NCBI GenBank assembly: GCA_963765765.1
Contig: CAVXYC010000019.1
Coordinates: 256,001-320,000, forward strand
Origin: an uncultured Chloroflexia bacterium
GTDB lineage: Bacteria > Chloroflexota > UBA6077 > JACCZL01
Direction of reading: 5' to 3'
DNA: 64,000 nucleotides
The notes under the pieces are model-generated. The model ran no database searches. It worked only from the letters and a program-made list of their open reading frames with translations, and was not told the DNA's origin. Of the stretch, positions 8,394 through 56,993 are shown in pieces. Numbering within the stretch: position 1 is the first letter of the stretch; each line of letters starts with the position of its first letter. Position numbers and translations under genes: made by a program.

Positions 8394-8615
8394 ATCCCCT
8401 CTACCGCTTCATGACCGCGTTGCATCGCCAGCGCGTCCGCTGTGGTTCCGAAGGAATCGTCTAACTCTTCTCTTCGCCAATCCATAGGTGCATGATCTTA
8501 GCGGGCATTGGCCGCGTTTTGGAACGGAGCGCCGTCGAAATGCGATTCAAGCCTACGGCAATAGAAAACCCTACCCGTTCCCGTGGCGCTTCGCGCTCTC
8601 GTTTGGCCTGAATGG

Positions 8616-8644
8616 TTGCCGGACCGGTCATGCGAGGTAATACT
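8616..8644 (+). promoter_or_regulatory. candidate sigma70 promoter for the SBP gene
   Basis: TTGCCG-17 nt-AATACT, about 50 nt upstream of ATG 8694. Confidence 0.35.
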
Positions 8645-8693
8645 GGGAGCAGATCAGGCAATGGCACAACCCCCGGTACCTGGGAGGTCATCC

Positions 8694-10433
8694 ATGTTGC
8701 TCAGGCGGATGCGCGGCGGACTCGTTCGATCGGCCCAAGTTGCGTCTGTGGTGGTTTTGATGGTTGGGTGCGCGGCGCCCGGAGCACCACCGTCCACCGC
8801 GCCAACGGCGGCCCCGCCGCCCAAGGAGCAGCCCGCCGTCCCGACTGTGGTTCCAGCGCCAACGGTCGCCGCGGCCCAGGCACAACCGTCCCTGTCGCGA
8901 TTGGTCATGGCGGTGGCTCCTCCGGGACGCGAGTCGAACGACGTCCGCTTCACCGGTAACACTGACCTGTGGGCACTCCGCCCGATGTACGAGTTCCTCA
9001 TCGGCCTAGATCCCAAGACGGGCAAGTACATTCCGCAGCTCGCCACCGAGTGGCAGCTTGACGAGGCCGGCCCATCGGCTCGATTCAAGCTACGCAAGGG
9101 TGTGCAGTTCCATGGGGGAAACGGTGAGTTTACCGCCAAAGACGTCGTGTTTACCCGCGAGCAGATGCGCAAGGATGACGTCATCAACGGCTGGCGTACG
9201 TTCTTCGACTCAGCGATCAAGGACATCGAAGTCGTCAATGACTACGAGGTCGTTTTCCATCTCTCGCGAGCAGATCCCAACTTGCTCGACATTATCTGCG
9301 GAAGCCGAAAACGGGTTTGAGATCCGAAGCGCGGCGCACTTCGACAAGATAGGGCCTCCCACCATGGAAAGTGGCCCACTGGCCGGGACGGGTGCCTATC
9401 AGTTCAAGGAGCGTGCTCAGGCACAGTACATTCGGTTTGAGCGCGTGCCATATCAGCATTGGCGAGCCCAGCCCGAGTTCCCTGAGTTCGAGTTCCGTTT
9501 CCAGCGCGAGGCGTCCACTCGTCTGGCCGCGCTGCAGGCCGGCGAAGTCCACATCACCACCTTACCGGCGGACCTACAACGCGATGCCGAGCGTCGAGGC
9601 TTCCCGGTCATCAGCAGTCAGGCTCCAGGCCTGCGCACTTTCATGCGTTACTACTGCTGCATCATGAAGGATCCCAAGAATCCAGACGCTGGCTGGGAGT
9701 ATCCGGATAGCCCGTTGATGGACGTACGTGTCCGCAAGGCGCTCAACAAGGCCATCAACCGCGACGAGCTGAACAAGGCGCTGTTCGACGGTAAGGGCGA
9801 GCCGATGTACGTCACTCAGCACCATCAAACTCGCCTGGGCTGGGACCCCTCGTGGGTGCAGCGCTGGCCAGACGAATACGGCTACGATCCCGCCGCTGCC
9901 CGCGCGCTGCTTGCCGAGGCGGGCTTTACAGCCGGCAAGCCGATGACCACGAACATCGTTTGTCGACGCCGATGGCCTCCATTGGTCAGGCACAGGATGT
10001 TCAAGAAGCCGTGGCCGGATACTGGCGTGCTGTAGGTGCCCAGGTGGAGCTACTGTCCACAGATCCGACAGAGATCGCCAACAACACACGCGTCCGTAAG
10101 TACAGCAACCACGTCCAGATGTGGGCAAACGCTTCGGCGATGTTCACGGGCTTCACCGGCCTGTTCCTCACCTGGGGCGGACGCGGCAATGGCTTCGAGG
10201 ACTTCGACGTCGATCGCTACGTCCTCGAAGCGGTCAGCACCTTTGACGAGAAGAAGCAGGACGAGGCCTGGCGCAAGGCCGGCGAGGTGCACTTCGCCAA
10301 GCACGCCGCGGTCCCGCTCTTCTGGCTCCCGGCCGAGGCCGTTATCAACCCGCGGGTGGTGTCAGAGTACACGTACCCTGGCAACGTTACCGGGACGTGG
10401 ACGCACGTGTACACGGCGAAGGCCGCGAAGTAG
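8694..10433 (+). CDS. ABC transporter substrate-binding lipoprotein, family 5 (peptide/nickel type); frameshifts ~9295 and ~9960
   Basis: lipobox MVGC, FKLRKGVQFHGG..FTAKDV, GTGAYQF, VRVRKALNKAINR across ORFs 8583, 9058 and 9852; SD GGAGG upstream. Confidence 0.88.
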
Positions 10434-46354: not shown

Positions 46355-46535
46355 GATTGTTTCAACGCTCCAGAATGTAAAACGAACGATTCCCACAGGA
46401 ATCGACCGGGCGCGTAGCTCGGAGGCTTGTCCACTGTGCCTAGAACGCTAATCGCCCCGAATGTAATCCAGACACAGGGACACGCCCGTGTTACTTGTCC
46501 CGACTTCGAGTGGACGGCCCGACGCTGACCGACGT

Positions 46536-47571
46536 TCACGGCAGAATCAAGTGGAGGTCACCGAACTCATGCCAGAGGTAACGGCCATCGAGCGCGGCTT
46601 GATAGGCGACCTCGAGATGCGCGGCTCCCGCGATTGCACTCAGCATGTCCAGGTGTGATGCTTGCGGCTCGTGAAATCCGGTTAGCAGTCCATCGATCAC
46701 TCTGACCCCGCGATCCGGCGTGATGATCAAGTCCGTCCATGCTCGAGTGGGTCTCAGTTGGCCCGACCCGTCTGATGCGCTCTCCAGTGCGCGCACCACC
46801 GTGGTTCCCACGGCGATGACGCGCCTCCCGTCAAATCTGGCCTGATTCACCGCCGTAGCCGTCTCAGGAGGAACGATGAACGGCTCAGCATACGGCCGTT
46901 CATGCGCTTCCAAACTCGCAACGCCAGTGTGAAGCGTCAGGGTTTTGAAGCCGATCGCACGCCGGGCCAGCTCAGCCAGCACCCGGCCACTGAAGGCGCG
47001 TCCGGCCGAGGGCATCTCTGCTGAACCGGGCTCCCGCGCGTAGATGGTCTGGTAGTAATTTAGCGGCCACTCATCGTGCAGATATGGGTAATGGACGGGG
47101 CGGCCCCAACGATCCAGATATCCCAGCACAGGCAAGGGGAGATCGAGTCGCGCAATCCAGAGTCGGCTTGAGTCCGCATGTGGAGCCAGAAACGTGATCC
47201 GCCCCTCATCGGGCACAGCGACCGACTCGTCGAGATCGACGCTCGCGTGCCTGAGGTTCCACAATCCAGAGGCCATCCGGAAGTCGCGTTGAGAGGTGGA
47301 TATCCAGCTCCCGTCCATCCCGGCGGCGGGCTGTCAGCGCGGCCGGGATAGTGGCTGAATCGTTTGCCACCAGCAGGTCGCCGGGTTGGAGGTAACTCGG
47401 CAAATCGATAAACCGGGCGTGATCGACGCGATTATCGCGGTAGTGGCTCACCATGAGCCGAACTTCGTCGCGCCCAAGGCCACGCGCCTCGGGTGGTTCG
47501 TGTGCCTCCAGATCAGGAGTTAGTGAGAACGCCAATCGGCGTTCAGATGGTTGAAGAGTAGTCATGGTCAT
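46536..47571 (-). CDS. queA: S-adenosylmethionine:tRNA ribosyltransferase-isomerase family protein (QueA-like paralog); frameshift ~47240
   Basis: EPPEARG..RDEVRLMV, GDLLVANDS, YQTIYA..PGSAEMPSAGRAF, AVGTTVVRALES, TGFHEP, YLWHEFGD. Confidence 0.85.
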
Positions 47572-48305
47572 CGTTGACCTCCGGAGCCCGCCGCCACCGG
47601 CATGCGTGCCACAACGCGACGGAACGGTGTTGTTTCGTCCTCGATGAGCCGTACGATGGCTGGCGCGGAGACTTCAGGACCGGGCAGGTGGCTCAGGTCC
47701 TCGCCCGGCTCGGCGTCGCGATGCATCTGGGTGTTCATGTCGCCCGGATCCACGGTGTAAATGCGGATCCCGGTGCCGGCGACTTCGGCTGCTAGCACTC
47801 GTGAGAGATGTTCCAAGGCCGCTTTGCTGGTGCCGTAACCACCCCAGCCCGGATATGCCTCCAGGGCGGCGTCGGACGTAATGTTGACGATCACGCCCTC
47901 TCCGCTCCCTTGCATATCCGGCAGGACAAGCTGCATCAGGTGGAGCGGAGCAATGGCGTTGACGTGGAAGACTTCTGCCAGCGTGTCGAGCGGGTAGCTC
48001 TCGAGTCGCGGCATCGGGCTCGGGCCGATCGTTGATGCGTTGTTGATCAGGATGTCGATCTGTCCGAATCGCTCCTGACCTGCCACTACGAGACGTTCGG
48101 CGTGTGTTGGATCGGCAACATCGCCGGGAATGGCCAGCACTGCCGTGAGTTTATTTAGCTCCTGTGCGGCTTGATCGAGCGCCTTCGCCCCCCTCGCCGT
48201 CAGAATGAGATTCGTTCCGCGGCGAGCCAGTAGGCGCGCGATTTCAAGACCGAGACCGCGGGATGCTCCGGTGATAAGTGCTGTTGAATTGGTTGATAGC
48301 CTCAT
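47568..48305 (-). CDS. short-chain dehydrogenase/reductase
   Basis: TGASRGLG, NNAS, YGTSK; overlaps the queA-like start by 4 nt. Confidence 0.93.
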   Translation of the reverse strand: MRLSTNSTALITGASRGLGLEIARLLARRGTNLILTARGAKALDQAAQELNKLTAVLAIPGDVADPTHAERLVVAGQERFGQIDILINNASTIGPSPMPRLESYPLDTLAEVFHVNAIAPLHLMQLVLPDMQGSGEGVIVNITSDAALEAYPGWGGYGTSKAALEHLSRVLAAEVAGTGIRIYTVDPGDMNTQMHRDAEPGEDLSHLPGPEVSAPAIVRLIEDETTPFRRVVARMPVAAGSGGQR

Positions 48306-48420
48306 CTACGACTCCATGGTGTTCGGGTGTTTCCGATACCAGGAGTGTCGCGCCCAGATGAGGCCGTCGGCGTCGTGCCAGGGGTCAGAACAACGATGGT
48401 CTCTTGGGTCAGCAATCAGA

Positions 48421-48438
48421 ACTGTCCAAAAGGACAGT
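48421..48438. promoter_or_regulatory. candidate NarL/LuxR-type operator, perfect 7-4-7 palindrome
   Basis: ACTGTCC-AAAA-GGACAGT, about 115 nt upstream of the SDR start. Confidence 0.55.
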
Positions 48439-48449
48439 CCAGCGCATGC

Positions 48450-49076
48450 CTAGGGGTTGAGCAGGCCGCGTTGAGCGGCGATGGCCACGGCTTGAGCGCG
48501 ATTCTCGGCACCCAGTTTTCGGATTAGCGCCGCCGTGTGAAATTTGACGGTGCGCTCAGTGATGGAGAGGGTGTTGGCGATCTGCTTGCCAGGGAGACCC
48601 TCGGCAATGAGTGTCAGCACCTCTCGTTCTCGCAGCGTGAGTGGACCTGCGCCGCGGGGCGCTCGAACGGCGTTGGCCAGGTGCGCCGCCGCGGCCGGGG
48701 CAAGCGCGGTGCCGCCGGCTGCCACAACGCGAACGGCGTCACTGATCTCCGCCGCTGTGGCACCCTTGAGAATGTATCCACGCGCTCCGCCTCGCACCGC
48801 GTCGAGCACCCGCTCGTCCGATTCGTAGGCGGTGAAGACCAGAATTGCTGTTGATGGTGAGATCTCTGCGAGTCGTGGAATGGCCTGAGTGCCGCTCATG
48901 CCAGGCAGCTCCAGGTCCAGCAGAACCACATCCGGTTGCACTCGCTCGACGAGCCCCAGTGCCTCTTCCGCGTTACTCGCCGCGCCCAGGACTTCGAAAT
49001 CTCGTTCGTCGGCCAAGGTGGCAACGAGCCCCTGACGAACGATTGGATGGTCGTCGACGACGATCACGCGGATCAT
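48450..49076 (-). CDS. NarL/LuxR-family response regulator
   Basis: VDDH, LLDLELP, GYILK, LTLREREVL...TVKFH HTH. Confidence 0.95.
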   Translation of the reverse strand: MIRVIVVDDHPIVRQGLVATLADERDFEVLGAASNAEEALGLVERVQPDVVLLDLELPGMSGTQAIPRLAEISPSTAILVFTAYESDERVLDAVRGGARGYILKGATAAEISDAVRVVAAGGTALAPAAAAHLANAVRAPRGAGPLTLREREVLTLIAEGLPGKQIANTLSITERTVKFHTAALIRKLGAENRAQAVAIAAQRGLLNP

Positions 49077-50242
49077 GACCGCGGATCACTTGGAAGGGGA
49101 ATACGCGCGGTAATCGTGGTCCCTCGATTCGGTCGGCTCGTGACGCGGAGCTGACCGCCCAGGAGACGTGCGCGCTCGCGCATACCGATGATGCCGTGAT
49201 GACCCGCCTCGGGACTCGACGTCGCCTCGGCATTCATGCCGGTCCCGTTGTCGCGGACCGTGAGCAAGACTGCGCCGTTCGCTACGCGTAGTGCGATGCT
49301 CGCTTCGGTCGCGTGAGCGTGGTGACGCACGTTTGCGGTTGCCTCCTGCGCGATGCGATATACCTCAGATTCGACCTGAAGTGGAAGCACGACGGCCTCA
49401 TCGATGTCCACGTGAATTTGAATGCCGGTCTCGGAGGTGAATCGCCGAGCAAGTGCCGAGAGTGCTTCGGGCAGTGTCCGCTCAGCCAGGGGCTCGGAGC
49501 GCAGGTTCAACACGGATGTCCGGGCTTGCTGCAACGCCTCCCGCGTGGTTGCGAGGGCGCGCTCGAGTCGCTCTCGTGCTTGTTCCGGGCCGTCCTCCAC
49601 GTGGCGCAACGCTCCCTCGATGTCCAATCCGATGGCGGTGAGTCCTTGCGCCAGGCCATCGTGAATCTCACGTGCCAGGCGCGTGCGGTCCTCGGCGCGC
49701 ATGAGCCGCGCGCTCTCCCCGGCGAGGCGGTCGCGCTCCACTGCGATGCCGATCTGCGAGGCGATCGTGGAAAGTAGCCGCAGCTCTTCGGGGTTGAGGG
49801 CACGCCAGGCTGGCCCAGCGATGTTCATGATGCCCAGGCCGCGATGTCGGAAGTAGAGCGGGATGCTGGCGTGGTAGCGCAGGCCCTGCGTCAGTGATGG
49901 ATCCTGCGCGTGGATCGCTGGGTGCAGACGGCTGCATTCCAGCATATCGACGTTTGTGGGACGCAGCTTGCCCTTGACGAAGAGGTCCGTGCAGTAACAC
50001 CAGCTTCCGCTCATGCGCACCGGCTCCTGCAGGTACGGGGGGAGGCGCTGCGTAGCCGCGACGTAGAACTGCCCGGTTTCGGCGTCCTTGAGCCAGACCC
50101 AGCCCGTTCTCAACCCGAGCAGCCGCGCTACGAGTCCGAGCGTGCGCTCCAGCGCCTGATAGATGTCCGTGGAGCCGTGCAACGCCTCAGTGATCGCATC
50201 GAGGATGGCTGACGAGTCCGACGGCTTGCGGAGACCAGTCAT
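49073..50242 (-). CDS. soluble GAF-domain HisKA_3 sensor kinase, AirS/YhcY-like with CxC...C motif
   Basis: no TM helix; WCYC...ECSRL...HASIPL...GIMNIA; RLAREIHDGLAQ H-box; QEATANV..HA, DNGTG, GIIGMRER. Confidence 0.92.
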   Translation of the reverse strand: MTGLRKPSDSSAILDAITEALHGSTDIYQALERTLGLVARLLGLRTGWVWLKDAETGQFYVAATQRLPPYLQEPVRMSGSWCYCTDLFVKGKLRPTNVDMLECSRLHPAIHAQDPSLTQGLRYHASIPLYFRHRGLGIMNIAGPAWRALNPEELRLLSTIASQIGIAVERDRLAGESARLMRAEDRTRLAREIHDGLAQGLTAIGLDIEGALRHVEDGPEQARERLERALATTREALQQARTSVLNLRSEPLAERTLPEALSALARRFTSETGIQIHVDIDEAVVLPLQVESEVYRIAQEATANVRHHAHATEASIALRVANGAVLLTVRDNGTGMNAEATSSPEAGHHGIIGMRERARLLGGQLRVTSRPNRGTTITARIPLPSDPRS

Positions 50243-50313
50243 GAGTGATGAGTCATGAGTGATGAGCCGCGGAAGTACGTCTACTCATCACTCATGACTC
50301 ATCACTCATGACT
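50237..50313. repeat. inverted heptamer array forming a perfect 30-bp hairpin over the kinase start codon
   Basis: agtcatgagtgatgagtcatgagtgatgag / ctcatcactcatgactcatcactcatgact. Confidence 0.85.
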
Positions 50314-55621: not shown

Positions 55622-56993
55622 CTATAGCGCTGGCAATCCCGTCCGCTCACTCGATTCACCGAGTGCGGTGAGTAGGTGCTGCGCCCACGCCTGGGCGGCT
55701 CCATCGTAGGTCGGATCGATGACCCATTCAGTGTCACCCGCCTCGCAGCCGGGGGCCAGGGTGTCCACGCAGCGATAGTGGCGAAGGGCAACCCCGCCCG
55801 TCGGCATGGCGAGAGTCGAACGCAGGCCATCGACGTTGCGCAGCGCGAGCTGTCGCCACTGCTCGTCACCTGTCTCCGCGTACAGCGCGAGGTGTGCCAG
55901 ACTCGTCCATGCGGCATACGAGGCGTACACCTGATCGATCCCGTATTCCAGGTTGTACCCCCCGCGCTCGTTGCGGAAGGTCGGCCTCGATCCCGTGGCC
56001 CACGCGCACCGCCCGTGCCAGCCGCGCCGAATCGCCGTCCAGGCGATAGGCGGCCAACTGGGCCTCGATGGCGATCCCCTGGTCGTAGTTGAAGTACCGG
56101 TCGCGGATCGCCGGGCCGCGCGTCCCGTCGTCGGCTTCCTCGAGTCCGATCCGCCACCGGTAGAGGCCCGTCTCGGGGTCGAAGAGGACGGTATCCAGCC
56201 ACAGCAGGGTCCGCAGTGCCCACTCGCGATCGTCCGGGTCGCCGGTGACCTCGAACGCCCGCGCGAAGAAGAGGGCGGCCAGGGCGTTGGTCTGCGCGGG
56301 CTTGCCTTCCGGCGTCGCCTCGTGGGAGGTGTTCCACCAGAAGCCGCCGCCGAACGTCTCGTCCCAGAGGCCGCTCTCCCGGAGGAAACTCGCCTCGCGG
56401 CGGATCGCATGGCGGTAGCGCGCCTGCTGTGATGCGTCGCGGGTCGTGCCGAGCCTCGCGATGAGCGCGAGCCCCGCCAGGGCGTTATCGTCGCCGAAGC
56501 GCTCCGCCCGCATGACTTCGGTCCCGAAGGGATTGGACCGCGCGTAATACCCGCCCTCGCTGTCGTCCCAGAGTCGGTCGAGGAACAGAAACGCCTTCTC
56601 GATATGGCAGATGCTCTCGGGATCCGTTCGTTCCGGCACCTGTTCGGTGCGCCGCGCAGGAAGCTGAGGCAACGGGACGGAGATCTGGCCCTTCGCGTGC
56701 AGCAGCGCGACATCGGCCCAGACCTGGGAAGCCACATACCACTGGTCCGCCCAATCAGGCTCCCGGTCGCTGCGACGATACGCCACGAAACGCGCTTCGG
56801 GACAGGTCCGAGCGTCGCCGAGGACGCGCAGATGCCGACGCGTCCCTTCTTGCACGCCGGCCGCCTCCGCGAGCCACCGGCCGCGGTCATCACCATCGGC
56901 GTGCGCCGGTCGGATGACCGCCAACGCGAGAACCACCGCCATGAGCACCGCAACCCGGTGGACGGTAAGGGGTACGGCGAAGCGCAGTCGCAT
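55622..56993 (-). CDS. secreted glycoside hydrolase family 76-like (alpha/alpha barrel) protein; frameshift ~55965
   Basis: signal peptide ending AHA, FGDDN, GGGFWW, KPAQTN, YFNYDQG; tail in ORF 55622..57010. Confidence 0.65.

What the first reader, a model, noticed from the sequence alone, without database searches (positions are those of the whole stretch)
46536..50242. Putative Fe-S redox-sensing two-component system controlling an SDR + QueA-like operon
Seen: a soluble GAF kinase with WCYC...ECSRL...HASIPL...GIMNIA, a NarL-type regulator, and then an overlapping SDR and QueA-family gene. The QueA motifs deviate from canonical QueA (GSAEMPSAGRAF for GSVAAPTAGLHF; TGFHEP for TNFHLP; YLWHEFGD for YRFFSYGD). 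No tgt or other que gene is in the window. Known: the CxC...C GAF pattern resembles S. aureus AirS, a [2Fe-2S] O2/redox sensor, and B. subtilis YhcY. I recall similar kinase-RR-SDR-queA clusters in Actinobacteria, which needs verifying. Inference: an O2/redox-regulated pathway in which a QueA paralog transfers the SAM ribosyl group to a non-tRNA or non-preQ1 substrate, and the SDR reduces the product.
Basis: partly seen in the sequence, partly recalled or inferred. Interest (0 to 1): 0.7.

Follow-up and report, generated by a model that had tools for sequence, protein, structure and literature searches.

The report
Redox-sensor-controlled SDR plus QueA-paralogue operon
A soil bacterium carries a sensor-regulated two-enzyme operon whose second enzyme is a diverged copy of the queuosine enzyme QueA that evidently no longer works on tRNA, so a known chemistry seems to have been reused for an unknown, probably redox-stress-related, job.

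Summary
All four genes and every quoted motif are at the stated coordinates on the minus strand. The QueA-like gene, however, is split by one extra base at 47252-47254. This is most likely an assembly error: rpoB in the same assembly is also frame-broken, and two related soil contigs lack the base.

The QueA-like protein belongs to a separate paralogue clade. A canonical queA lies next to tgt on another contig. In 201 Actinomycetes genomes, 58 carry a QueA-family gene and 30 carry TGT, with no overlap, so preQ1-tRNA cannot be the substrate there.

An SDR gene sits directly upstream of the paralogue in 69 of 73 loci across at least eight phyla.

The kinase's only three cysteines and one histidine are invariant in 19 of 19 co-located kinases. 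They match three of the four AirS cysteines.

A palindrome, CTGTMC-N4-GKACAG, lies upstream of the SDR gene in 25 of 26 loci with this kinase and in 0 of 12 loci with another kinase type.

In other lineages the same enzyme pair sits beside SoxR (with a SoxR box) or beside a SufR-like regulator. This supports redox control.

The acceptor substrate and the sensor's cofactor remain unknown.

The parts
49073..50242 (-). Soluble sensor histidine kinase: GAF (residues about 25-170), HisKA_3 and HATPase_c. Its only cysteines are C82, C84 and C103. With H124 they are invariant in co-located orthologues.
   Evidence: Pfam. Cysteine positions and hydrophobicity. Conservation in 19 of 19 sequences.
48450..49076 (-). 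NarL/FixJ-type response regulator (receiver + GerE helix-turn-helix). Overlaps the kinase gene by 4 nt.
   Evidence: Pfam and NCBIfam. No equivalog cut-off was reached; the best match was MadR at 180.8 bits against a cut-off of 300.
48421..48438 (.). 7-4-7 palindrome ACTGTCC-N4-GGACAGT, the candidate binding site of the response regulator. It lies 11 nt after the regulator's stop codon and about 115 nt before the SDR start codon.
   Evidence: It is the only exact CTGTMC-N4-GKACAG site in the window and one of two CTGTNC-N4-GNACAG sites in the 6.49-Mb assembly. The site is conserved upstream of the SDR gene in 25 of 26 loci with this kinase type.
47568..48305 (-). Classical short-chain dehydrogenase/reductase, 245 aa, with TGASRGLG, NNA and YGTSK motifs.
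   Evidence: Found directly upstream of the QueA paralogue in 69 of 73 loci.
46536..47571 (-). QueA-family paralogue (Pfam Queuosine_synth). About 344 aa if read through, but split into two frames in this assembly. Overlaps the SDR stop codon by 4 nt.
   Evidence: Clade separation.
47252..47254 (-). Position of the single extra base that breaks the QueA-like reading frame.
   Evidence: Related soil contigs leave out one base here.
46387..46404 (-). Terminator-like hairpin about 130 nt after the QueA-like stop codon; probable end of the operon.
   Evidence: This is a consensus scan only: 2 sites found against 2.0 expected.

Best explanation
This is an inducible two-enzyme operon under the control of an adjacent two-component system. 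The enzymes are an NAD(P)-dependent classical SDR and a neofunctionalised QueA paralogue.

Shown here:
- The paralogue keeps the QueA scaffold. Forty-seven positions are conserved in both clades, including the GS..P.AG, VGTT..R.LE, T.FH.P and FGD cores. Seventeen clade-specific switches sit next to those cores.
- It forms its own clade.
- It is fixed beside the SDR gene across at least eight phyla.
- It occurs in many genomes that have no TGT, and in five checked genomes that have no QueF. Its acceptor is therefore not preQ1 in tRNA.
- A conserved palindrome sits in front of the SDR gene wherever this kinase type is present.

Inferred:
- The phosphorylated NarL-type regulator binds that palindrome and switches the operon on or off.
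- The soluble GAF kinase senses a redox, metal or thiol signal through its invariant Cys-X-Cys...Cys...His set. The ligand would be an Fe-S cluster or a Zn/thiol switch.
- The paralogue still uses SAM as ribosyl donor, releasing adenine and methionine. It builds a ribose-derived carbocycle on a non-tRNA nucleophile, most likely a small molecule.
- The SDR then oxidises or reduces a hydroxyl or carbonyl group of that product.

In other lineages the same enzyme pair lies next to SoxR (with a SoxR box), next to a SufR-like regulator, or next to a Cys-less GAF kinase. I therefore read the module as an effector of a redox or oxidative-stress response. The frameshift in this copy is most likely an assembly error.
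For: Paralogue identity:
- phmmer scores against P0002 fall into two groups with a gap: 111-152 for 24 canonical sequences and 287-511 for 74 paralogues.
- One tree branch separates the two groups with SH-aLRT 100.
- There are 47 shared and 17 switched conserved columns.
- NCBIfam QueA scores are 49.9 + 138.3 bits against a cut-off of 324.
- The protein aligns over its full length to solved QueA structures 1wdi, 1vky and 1yy3, with E-values from 2.5e-50 to 1.6e-37.

Not a queuosine enzyme:
- The same genome has a canonical queA at C29:34057-35060 beside tgt at C29:32493-33542.
- Three genomes (G031, G032, G035) have only the paralogue and no TGT.
- In a sample of 201 Actinomycetes genomes, 58 have a Queuosine_synth match. 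All score 175-257 bits, the paralogue range. Thirty have TGT and none has both; 8.7 would be expected by chance (Fisher p = 1.4e-5; related genomes are not independent).
- QueF was found in 0 of 5 paralogue-bearing genomes. QueC gave only marginal hits (27 and 21 bits) in 2 of 5.
- A published paper states that streptomycetes lack TGT and queuosine (PMC9262613, passages read).
- Paralogues are more acidic than canonical QueA: median net charge -10.5 against -0.5.

Linkage:
- An SDR gene lies directly upstream in 69 of 73 loci that have at least 800 nt of upstream sequence.
- The four-gene unit is present in 7 of 8 same-order relatives with enough sequence.

Regulation:
- The palindrome (at most 1 mismatch) lies within 1 kb upstream of the SDR gene in 25 of 26 loci with this kinase type, exact in 14. 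L027 and L122 are the same contig, so this is 24 of 25 distinct loci.
- It is present in 0 of 12 loci with the other kinase type.
- The 91 loci examined hold 23 exact sites in 873 kb. Twenty-two of them lie within 1 kb upstream of the SDR gene.
- In L125 and L128, where a 2.7-kb insert separates the regulator from the SDR gene, the site stays next to the SDR gene (-195 and -192).

Redox theme:
- C82, C84, C103 and H124 are invariant in 19 of 19 co-located kinases, and the kinase has no other cysteine.
- A SufR-family regulator with conserved His and Cys residues is present in 14 of 80 loci. In 13 of them it starts 2-80 nt after the paralogue's stop codon.
- soxR is divergent from the SDR/paralogue pair on Rhizobium replicons. 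Twenty-nine records cover at least 80% of the 2.5-kb soxR-SDR-paralogue stretch.
- The R. etli intergenic region holds a site matching the SoxR box in 15 of 18 positions.
- soxR is also adjacent in 3 of 80 loci, all Actinomycetota.
Against: - No substrate, product or cofactor is shown; everything about the chemistry is inference from homology.
- The AirS motif (Cys-X7-Cys-X-Cys-X17-Cys; PMC4601167) is only three-quarters matched. Position -8 holds an invariant proline, and the spacing is 18-19 residues rather than 17. A Cys3His set is equally typical of a zinc site.
- Thirteen of 80 loci use a GAF kinase with no cysteine motif. The signal therefore need not be read by an Fe-S cluster everywhere.
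- In 32 of 80 loci no regulator was seen. Fourteen of those loci are shorter than 9 kb.
- The Rhizobium paralogue sits on a very long branch (3.52), so its placement is unsure.
- The gene is frame-broken in this assembly. The two contigs that lack the extra base are 97-98% relatives, not the same strain.
- Counts across related genomes are not independent.
- The charge comparison sets Chloroflexota-order canonical proteins against paralogues from many phyla.
Confidence: 0.6

Rival explanations
1. The sensing step does not use Fe-S. The Cys-X-Cys...Cys...His set of the GAF domain binds zinc or acts as a thiol switch for oxidants, electrophiles or sulfide. Alternatively the GAF pocket binds a small-molecule ligand such as the pathway's substrate. 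The rest of the model is unchanged.
For: Only three cysteines are present and the first AirS cysteine is absent. A second GAF-kinase type beside the same operon has no cysteines at all. No homologue with a solved structure or a known cofactor was found.
Against: Two other regulator classes beside the same enzyme pair belong to families whose members bind Fe-S clusters: SoxR and SufR-like. Three-cysteine [2Fe-2S] coordination exists in another sensor kinase, NreB (abstract of PMC13478379, listed).
Confidence: 0.4
2. The paralogue still modifies a macromolecule, but a different one: another amine-bearing base in tRNA, rRNA or DNA, or a protein side chain. It does not act on a small molecule.
For: All characterised members of the family act on tRNA. 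The full two-domain QueA architecture is retained.
Against: Paralogues are markedly acidic (median net charge -10.5 against -0.5), which is unusual for a nucleic-acid-binding enzyme. They are fixed to an SDR partner. They are controlled by stress sensors, including SoxR, whose regulons outside the enterics are (recalled) small-molecule-handling enzymes and pumps. No RNA- or DNA-modification gene is a conserved neighbour.
Confidence: 0.15
3. In this genome the locus is decaying. The frameshift is real and the QueA-like gene is a pseudogene.
For: As assembled, the gene is split into two frames. The extra base is not in a long homopolymer run.
Against: The essential gene rpoB is frame-broken in the same assembly. 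Apart from the one base, both halves are conserved, at 91% identity to P0001. Two related soil contigs lack the base. The kinase, regulator, SDR and operator are intact.
Confidence: 0.08
4. It is a second, condition-specific QueA isozyme that makes epoxyqueuosine on tRNA under particular redox conditions.
For: It belongs to Pfam Queuosine_synth. This genome also has tgt, so the substrate would be available here.
Against: It forms a separate clade with altered hallmark motifs. It scores below the QueA equivalog cut-offs. In the Actinomycetes sample, 58 of 58 genomes carrying the family lack TGT, and QueF was found in 0 of 5.
Confidence: 0.03

Closest known systems
QueA (tRNA preQ1(34) S-adenosylmethionine ribosyltransferase-isomerase; structures 1VKY, 1WDI, 1YY3)
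   Same: Same Pfam family. The alignment covers the full length at about 32-35% identity, and 47 conserved positions are shared. SAM binding and the ribosyl-transfer/isomerisation chemistry are therefore probably retained.
   Different: It forms a separate clade. Seventeen conserved positions are switched: GSVAAPTAG becomes GSAEMPSAG, TNFHLP becomes TGFHEP, and YRFFSFGD becomes YLWHEFGD. The protein is acidic. It is always paired with an SDR. It occurs in genomes without TGT or QueF, so its acceptor differs.
AirSR (YhcSR) of Staphylococcus aureus, a [2Fe-2S] kinase with a NarL-type regulator
   Same: A soluble kinase with an N-terminal cysteine cluster containing Cys-X-Cys followed by a distal Cys, paired with a NarL-type regulator.
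   Different: The AirS motif is Cys-X7-Cys-X-Cys-X17-Cys. Here the first cysteine is replaced by a conserved proline, the spacing is 18-19 residues, and an invariant histidine could serve as the fourth ligand. No direct sequence comparison was possible because no tool supplied an AirS sequence. The regulated genes are unrelated.
[quoted passage not shown]
   Same: In Rhizobium replicons, and in 3 of 80 loci (all Actinomycetota), the same SDR/paralogue pair is transcribed divergently from soxR. In R. etli the intergenic region holds a SoxR-box-like palindrome matching 15 of 18 positions.
   Different: The window itself has no soxR. Control there is by a two-component system with a different operator. 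That non-enteric SoxR regulons consist of a few enzymes and pumps acting on redox-active compounds is recalled, not checked here.
DosS/DosT-DosR of mycobacteria (GAF-domain HisKA_3 kinases with a NarL-type regulator); this comparison is recalled
   Same: Soluble GAF + HisKA_3 + HATPase kinase, a NarL-type regulator and a palindromic operator.
   Different: DosS and DosT use haem in tandem GAF domains. Here there is a single GAF domain with a Cys/His set, and the regulon appears to be a single operon. Not tested by any search.
SufR (ArsR-type helix-turn-helix with a C-terminal Fe-S-binding cysteine motif)
   Same: In 14 of 80 loci the regulator beside the enzyme pair aligns over the full length of TIGR02702, at 93-110 bits. 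It has conserved H166, C168, C181, H202, H208 and C210.
   Different: The scores are below the equivalog cut-off of 178.8 bits. The downstream genes examined in L038 and L063 are not suf genes. This regulator is absent from the window.

Membership tests
Canonical QueA (NCBIfam NF001140 / TIGR00113 equivalogs) | Scores above the curated equivalog cut-off | tested here: not met
   The two halves score 49.9 + 138.3 bits on NF001140 (cut-off 324) and 37.8 + 125.6 bits on TIGR00113 (cut-off 267.45).
Canonical QueA | Groups with bona fide QueA in a phylogeny | tested here: not met
   Seventy-four paralogues and 24 canonical sequences are separated by one branch with SH-aLRT 100. There is a score gap between 111-152 and 287-511.
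Canonical QueA | Occurs together with TGT, which supplies the preQ1-tRNA substrate | tested here: not met
   In 201 Actinomycetes genomes there were 58 with the family, 30 with TGT and 0 with both. G031, G032 and G035 have the paralogue without TGT. The window's own genome has TGT, but it also has a canonical queA next to it.
Canonical QueA | Hallmark motifs GSVAAPTAGLHF, TNFHLP and YRFFSFGD | tested here: not met
   Seventeen clade-specific switches lie within or beside these motifs.
Canonical QueA | Converts preQ1-tRNA and SAM to epoxyqueuosine-tRNA | not testable with these tools
   Needs an enzyme assay or complementation of a queA deletion.
Queuosine_synth superfamily (Pfam PF02547) | Significant full-length match to the family profile and to solved QueA structures | tested here: met
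   The two halves score 66.1 + 185.7 bits against a cut-off of 25. The relative P0002 matches 1wdi, 1vky and 1yy3 over residues 14-343.
Classical SDR | TGxxxGxG cofactor motif, NNAG-type motif, and catalytic Ser with YxxxK | tested here: met
   TGASRGLG at residue 12, NNA at 88 and YGTSK at 157. adh_short scores 172 bits.
NarL/FixJ-type two-component system | HisKA_3 + HATPase_c kinase with a conserved H-box histidine, and a receiver + GerE regulator | tested here: met
   Pfam. H194 and D195 are invariant in alignment A1.
AirS-type [2Fe-2S] sensor kinase | Cys-X7-Cys-X-Cys-X17-Cys motif in the N-terminal sensor | tested here: not met
   Only Cys-X-Cys-X18(19)-Cys is present. Position -8 is an invariant proline.
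AirS-type [2Fe-2S] sensor kinase | Sequence homology of the sensor domain to AirS/YhcY | not testable with these tools
   No tool supplied an AirS sequence. The primary AirS paper is not held. PDB and Atlas searches gave only generic GAF matches.
AirS-type [2Fe-2S] sensor kinase | Binds a redox-active Fe-S cluster | not testable with these tools
   Needs anaerobic purification with UV-visible, EPR and metal analysis.

The most novel reading that the evidence does not exclude
The SDR/QueA-paralogue pair is a widespread, previously unrecognised redox-stress effector. It would be the first non-tRNA use of QueA chemistry. Using SAM's ribose, it would build an epoxy-cyclopentanediol-type carbocycle on a small-molecule nucleophile, which the SDR then processes. 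The outcome would be either inactivation of redox-cycling compounds or production of a protective or signalling metabolite. The module has been placed independently under at least four unrelated sensors: a Cys3His GAF kinase, a Cys-less GAF kinase, a SufR-like regulator and SoxR.
Probability: 0.35. Interest if true: 0.85.

Novelty: new variant of a known kind. Interest (0 to 1): 0.7.

Why it matters
Public records name this protein 'S-adenosylmethionine:tRNA ribosyltransferase-isomerase'. A published table lists SCO1804 as QueA. Yet the family is common in bacteria that cannot make or insert queuosine precursors. The annotation is therefore almost certainly wrong for a large family found in Actinomycetota, Chloroflexota, Acidobacteriota, Gemmatimonadota, Latescibacterota, Bacteroidota, Deinococcota and Rhizobium replicons.

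QueA's ribosyl-transfer/isomerisation is one of the rarest uses of SAM. A second substrate class would widen known SAM chemistry and might reveal a new carbocyclic metabolite.

The repeated capture of the pair by redox sensors points to the conditions under which to look, and to a new operator/regulator pair. Tractable models exist: S. coelicolor SCO1801-1804 (inferred from annotation) and R. etli p42f soxR-SDR-paralogue.

My ten literature searches found no study of this family.

Tried and rejected
- Rfam scan at gathering thresholds of 11 related loci (139,596 bases): no match, so no known riboswitch precedes the operon.
- PADLOC: no defence-system match for the paralogue, SDR or kinase. The regulator gave only weak domain hits.
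- SDR against PDB: only generic SDRs, the best being 4z0t at 4e-31, so no hint of the substrate.
- GAF domain against PDB: nothing below E = 0.2.
- ESM Atlas: only generic GAF clusters.
- The second exact CTGTNC-N4-GNACAG site in the genome (C32:157723) lies inside a coding region and is taken as chance.
- Matches with up to 2 mismatches in the window: 10 found against 5.9 +/- 2.3 expected, so not informative. The 1-mismatch site at 55870 lies inside an ORF.
- A 9-nt inverted repeat spans the SDR start codon. The leader's fold has z = -1.74, and 12 of 200 shuffles fold as well, so it is not significant.
- The window's neighbours (a VOC/glyoxalase-like gene, an MFS transporter and an ABC exporter) are not found beside the unit in relatives.
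- Genes inserted between the regulator and the SDR gene vary between relatives: amidohydrolase, ABC substrate-binding protein and unknowns.
- All-against-all clustering of neighbouring ORFs was noisy because of shadow ORFs. It showed no further widely conserved neighbour apart from the regulators.
- Literature: six searches aimed at the QueA paralogue found no study of it. Searches gave only annotation-table mentions. The primary AirS paper is not held.
- Read laying: most of the stretch is covered only by short pieces. Uncovered parts mean nothing.
- No structure prediction or complex prediction was run. The tools return no coordinates, so the position of the switched residues or of the Cys/His set could not have been read from them. 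I also make no claim that the two enzymes bind each other.
S. coelicolor expression tables that might list SCO1803 or SCO1804 could not be seen.

Full report
**1. Anatomy**

Four genes lie head to tail on the minus strand.
- The kinase is at 50242..49073 (389 aa). It has GAF, HisKA_3 and HATPase_c domains and no membrane segment (maximum KD19 1.23).
- The regulator is at 49076..48450 (208 aa; receiver + GerE). It overlaps the kinase gene by 4 nt.
- A 144-nt gap follows, then the SDR at 48305..47568 (245 aa; adh_short 172 bits; TGASRGLG, NNA, YGTSK).
- The QueA-family gene starts at 47571, overlapping the SDR stop codon by 4 nt.

A terminator-like hairpin at 46404..46387 may end the operon, though this rests on a consensus scan only.

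**2. The frameshift**

The QueA-like gene is split between ORF A (47571..47206) and ORF B (..47318..46536). The closest database protein, P0001 (91% identical), reads 'LWIVEPRHASVELDES' through the junction. This places one extra base at about 47252-47254.

Contigs from two soil metagenome runs bridge the site, and each leaves out one base there. X1 record 3 is 325 nt with 8 other differences. X2 record 12 is 151 nt with 5 differences. These are close relatives, not the same strain.

Other genes in the assembly are also broken. The assembly has 33 contigs, 91.8% completeness and 6.85% contamination. rpoB is spread over three frames, while rpoC is whole. The canonical queA has several frame changes and a TAG. 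I therefore read the break as an assembly indel and give a real pseudogene about 8%.

**3. A paralogue, not QueA**

- The two halves match Pfam Queuosine_synth at 66 + 186 bits. They stay far below the NCBIfam QueA cut-offs.
- The intact relative P0002 aligns end to end with the solved QueA structures 1wdi, 1vky and 1yy3.
- I examined 98 QueA-family ORFs. They came from 80 loci found in species-representative genomes and from 30 relatives in the same order.
- phmmer scores to P0002 fall into two groups with a gap: 111-152 (24 sequences) and 287-511 (74 sequences).
- A maximum-likelihood tree puts the two groups on either side of one branch with SH-aLRT 100 (quick search, LG+G4, no bootstrap).
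- Forty-seven columns are at least 90% conserved and identical in both groups. Seventeen are conserved but different, and they cluster in the hallmark motifs.
- Paralogues are more acidic: median net charge -10.5 against -0.5, and pI 5.7 against 7.2. The caveat is that the two groups differ in taxonomic make-up.

**4. The decisive comparative test**

The window's own genome has a canonical queA (C29:34057-35060) next to tgt (C29:32493-33542).

Among the 31 genomes of the order, including G000:
- Twenty-six have a canonical-range match (384-457 bits).
- Twelve have a paralogue-range match. Nine are full length at 263-277 bits. G000 and G030 are frame-split, and G008 is partial.
- G006 is flagged unpublished and is one row of this tally only.

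Three genomes reached through loci have the paralogue as their only family member and no TGT: a Streptomyces, Catenulispora pinistramenti, and a complete actinomycete MAG chromosome.

In an evenly drawn sample of 201 Actinomycetes genomes:
- Fifty-eight have a Queuosine_synth match, all at 175-257 bits.
- Thirty have TGT.
- None has both, where 8.7 would be expected. One-sided Fisher p = 1.4e-5, which is overstated because related genomes are not independent.
- G054 is flagged unpublished and is one row only.

QueF was found in 0 of 5 paralogue-bearing genomes. QueC gave only 27- and 21-bit hits inside long ORFs.

A published paper states that streptomycete genomes lack tgt and the Q pathway (PMC9262613, passages read). 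Another lists SCO1804 as 'QueA' (PMC4932002, table passage).

Without TGT there is no preQ1 in tRNA. The paralogue's acceptor must therefore be something else.

**5. The conserved core is SDR plus paralogue**

An SDR orthologue lies directly upstream on the same strand in 69 of the 73 loci with at least 800 nt of upstream sequence. Of the four exceptions, L025 has the SDR gene about 700 nt away, L052 has it split, L089 has it merged into a longer stop-to-stop ORF, and L060 has none.

By record title or NCBI phylum, the loci come from Chloroflexota, Actinomycetota, Acidobacteriota, Gemmatimonadota, Latescibacterota, Bacteroidota, Deinococcota and others.

No other enzyme is a conserved neighbour.

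**6. The regulators**

Of the 80 loci:
- Eighteen carry the window's kinase type plus a regulator (type 1).
- Thirteen carry another GAF-HisKA_3 kinase plus a NarL-type regulator (type 2). It has no cysteine motif. In eight loci, including the five Streptomyces loci, Catenulispora and Kutzneria, it is transcribed divergently.
- Fourteen carry a SufR-family regulator.
- Three carry SoxR.
- Thirty-two show none. Fourteen of those loci are shorter than 9 kb.

In same-order relatives the four-gene unit is present in 7 of the 8 loci with enough upstream sequence. Two of them have a 2.7-kb insert between the regulator and the SDR gene.

**7. An operator**

Just after the regulator's stop codon, the window has ACTGTCC-N4-GGACAGT at 48421-48438.
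- CTGTNC-N4-GNACAG occurs exactly twice in the 6.49-Mb assembly. The other site is inside a coding region.
- Across loci, a site with at most 1 mismatch lies within 1 kb upstream of the SDR gene in 25 of 26 type-1 loci, exact in 14. L027 and L122 are the same contig, so this is 24 of 25 distinct loci. The miss is L015.
- The corresponding figures are 0 of 12 type-2 loci and 13 of 30 loci with no two-component system in view.
- Of 23 exact sites in 873 kb, 22 lie within 1 kb upstream of the SDR gene.
- Where an insert separates the regulator from the SDR gene, the site stays with the SDR gene (-195 and -192).

This fits a NarL-type dimer site that controls the operon. Binding itself is inferred. 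Type-2 loci carry repeated CCTAGG boxes instead (by eye).

**8. The sensor**

The kinase has exactly three cysteines: C82, C84 and C103. With H124 they are invariant in 19 of 19 co-located kinases from several phyla.

A review gives the AirS motif as Cys-X7-Cys-X-Cys-X17-Cys, binding a [2Fe-2S] cluster (PMC4601167, passage read). Here the first position is a conserved proline and the last spacing is 18-19 residues. The match is three of four cysteines, with histidine as a possible fourth ligand.

A Cys3His set fits either an Fe-S cluster or a zinc/thiol switch. I could not compare the domain with an AirS sequence.

**9. Independent support for a redox role**

SufR-like regulator:
- The 14 SufR-family regulators align over the whole of TIGR02702 at 93-110 bits, against a cut-off of 178.8.
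- They conserve H166, C168, C181, H202, H208 and C210.
- In 13 of the 14 loci the gene begins 2-80 nt after the paralogue's stop codon.
- The downstream genes examined in L038 and L063 are not suf genes.

SoxR in Rhizobium:
- On R. etli CFN42 plasmid p42f, RefSeq annotates soxR divergent from 'SDR family oxidoreductase' and 'S-adenosylmethionine:tRNA ribosyltransferase-isomerase'. The two enzyme genes overlap by 4 nt, and a redoxin-domain gene follows.
- The 2.5-kb soxR-SDR-paralogue stretch is at least 80% covered in 29 Rhizobium replicon records. These are one genus and so not independent.
- The intergenic region holds CTTCAAGTTAACTTGAAC. It matches 15 of 18 positions of the SoxR-box consensus quoted in PMC4411124.
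- The Rhizobium SDR is 37% identical to the window's (E = 4e-44).
- The Rhizobium paralogue is 32% identical to P0002. It falls on the paralogue side of the tree, but on a very long branch.

SoxR elsewhere:
- SoxR homologues also sit divergently upstream of the pair in L024, L039 and L056, all Actinomycetota.
- SoxR-box-like palindromes lie in MerR-type promoters there (partly by eye).

**10. Reading**

Shown:
- The paralogue is a separate clade.
- It is independent of the queuosine pathway.
- It is fixed beside an SDR gene.
- The operator co-occurs with the type-1 kinase.
- The sensor's Cys/His set is conserved.
- The pair is repeatedly adjacent to redox-type regulators.

Inferred:
- The regulator binds the palindrome.
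- The GAF domain senses redox state through a metal or thiol centre.
- The paralogue still uses SAM's ribose, but on a non-tRNA acceptor that is probably a small molecule.
- The SDR processes the product.
- The module serves a redox or oxidative-stress response.

The acceptor is unknown.

**11. Novelty and limits**

Ten literature searches found no study of this paralogue.

The S. coelicolor counterpart SCO1801-1804 appears only in tables: an unnamed kinase/NarL pair (PMC9739842), a dehydrogenase (PMC11272600) and 'QueA'. That SCO1804 belongs to this clade is my inference from annotation and from the matching layout of the Streptomyces loci. I did not check it by sequence.

All chemistry and cofactor claims need experiments.

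Noticed in passing
window 50237-50313: A perfect 30-nt inverted repeat with a 17-nt loop, built from tandem 14-nt units. It lies between the upstream VOC-like gene and the kinase gene, and its 3' arm covers the kinase start codon. Similar arms (at most 3 mismatches) occur on contigs C14 (twice), C15 and C16, and exact 14-nt units on C15, C17, C18 and C23. It therefore looks like a dispersed REP-like element.
   Followed up: partly
G000:C29:34057-35060 (locus L002) and G000:C20:326017-329370: The canonical queA beside tgt has several frame changes and a TAG. rpoB is spread over three frames, while rpoC is whole. Indels in this assembly are clustered, so broken genes in it should not be read as pseudogenes without checking.
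   Followed up: partly
G000:C20:29606-30730: A second TGT-family gene (329 + 103 bits, one open frame of 408 aa) in addition to the tgt next to queA. Its type (second bacterial TGT, DpdA-like or other) was not examined.
   Followed up: no
L048, L050, L062, L067, L077, L081, L083, L086 (about 220 nt upstream of the SDR gene): Loci with the Cys-less GAF kinase carry two to four GNCCTAGGNC-like boxes between the divergent kinase and SDR genes. This may be a second, different operator for the same operon. Seen by eye and not tested statistically.
   Followed up: partly
L122:4633-5109 (same contig as L027); L072:4189-4740: In some loci a small extra gene sits between the operator and the SDR gene. 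One order-level relative has a PNPOx-like split-barrel protein. L072 has a DUF6069 membrane protein, and similar small ORFs in L046, L064 and L084 were seen only by eye.
   Followed up: partly
L131 (R. etli p42f) 8460-9143: A gene annotated as redoxin-domain protein directly follows the SoxR-linked SDR/paralogue pair in Rhizobium etli. It may belong to the same response.
   Followed up: no
L027 / L122: The record titled 'Proteobacteria bacterium isolate Centralia_MAG_106' is the same contig as G015:C15. The genome tool places G015 in the same order as the window's genome, so the submitter's phylum label looks wrong.
   Followed up: no
L056:4737-5080: Between the SoxR-type promoter and the SDR gene in this actinomycete locus lies another small ORF of unknown family. 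It was read by eye only.
   Followed up: no
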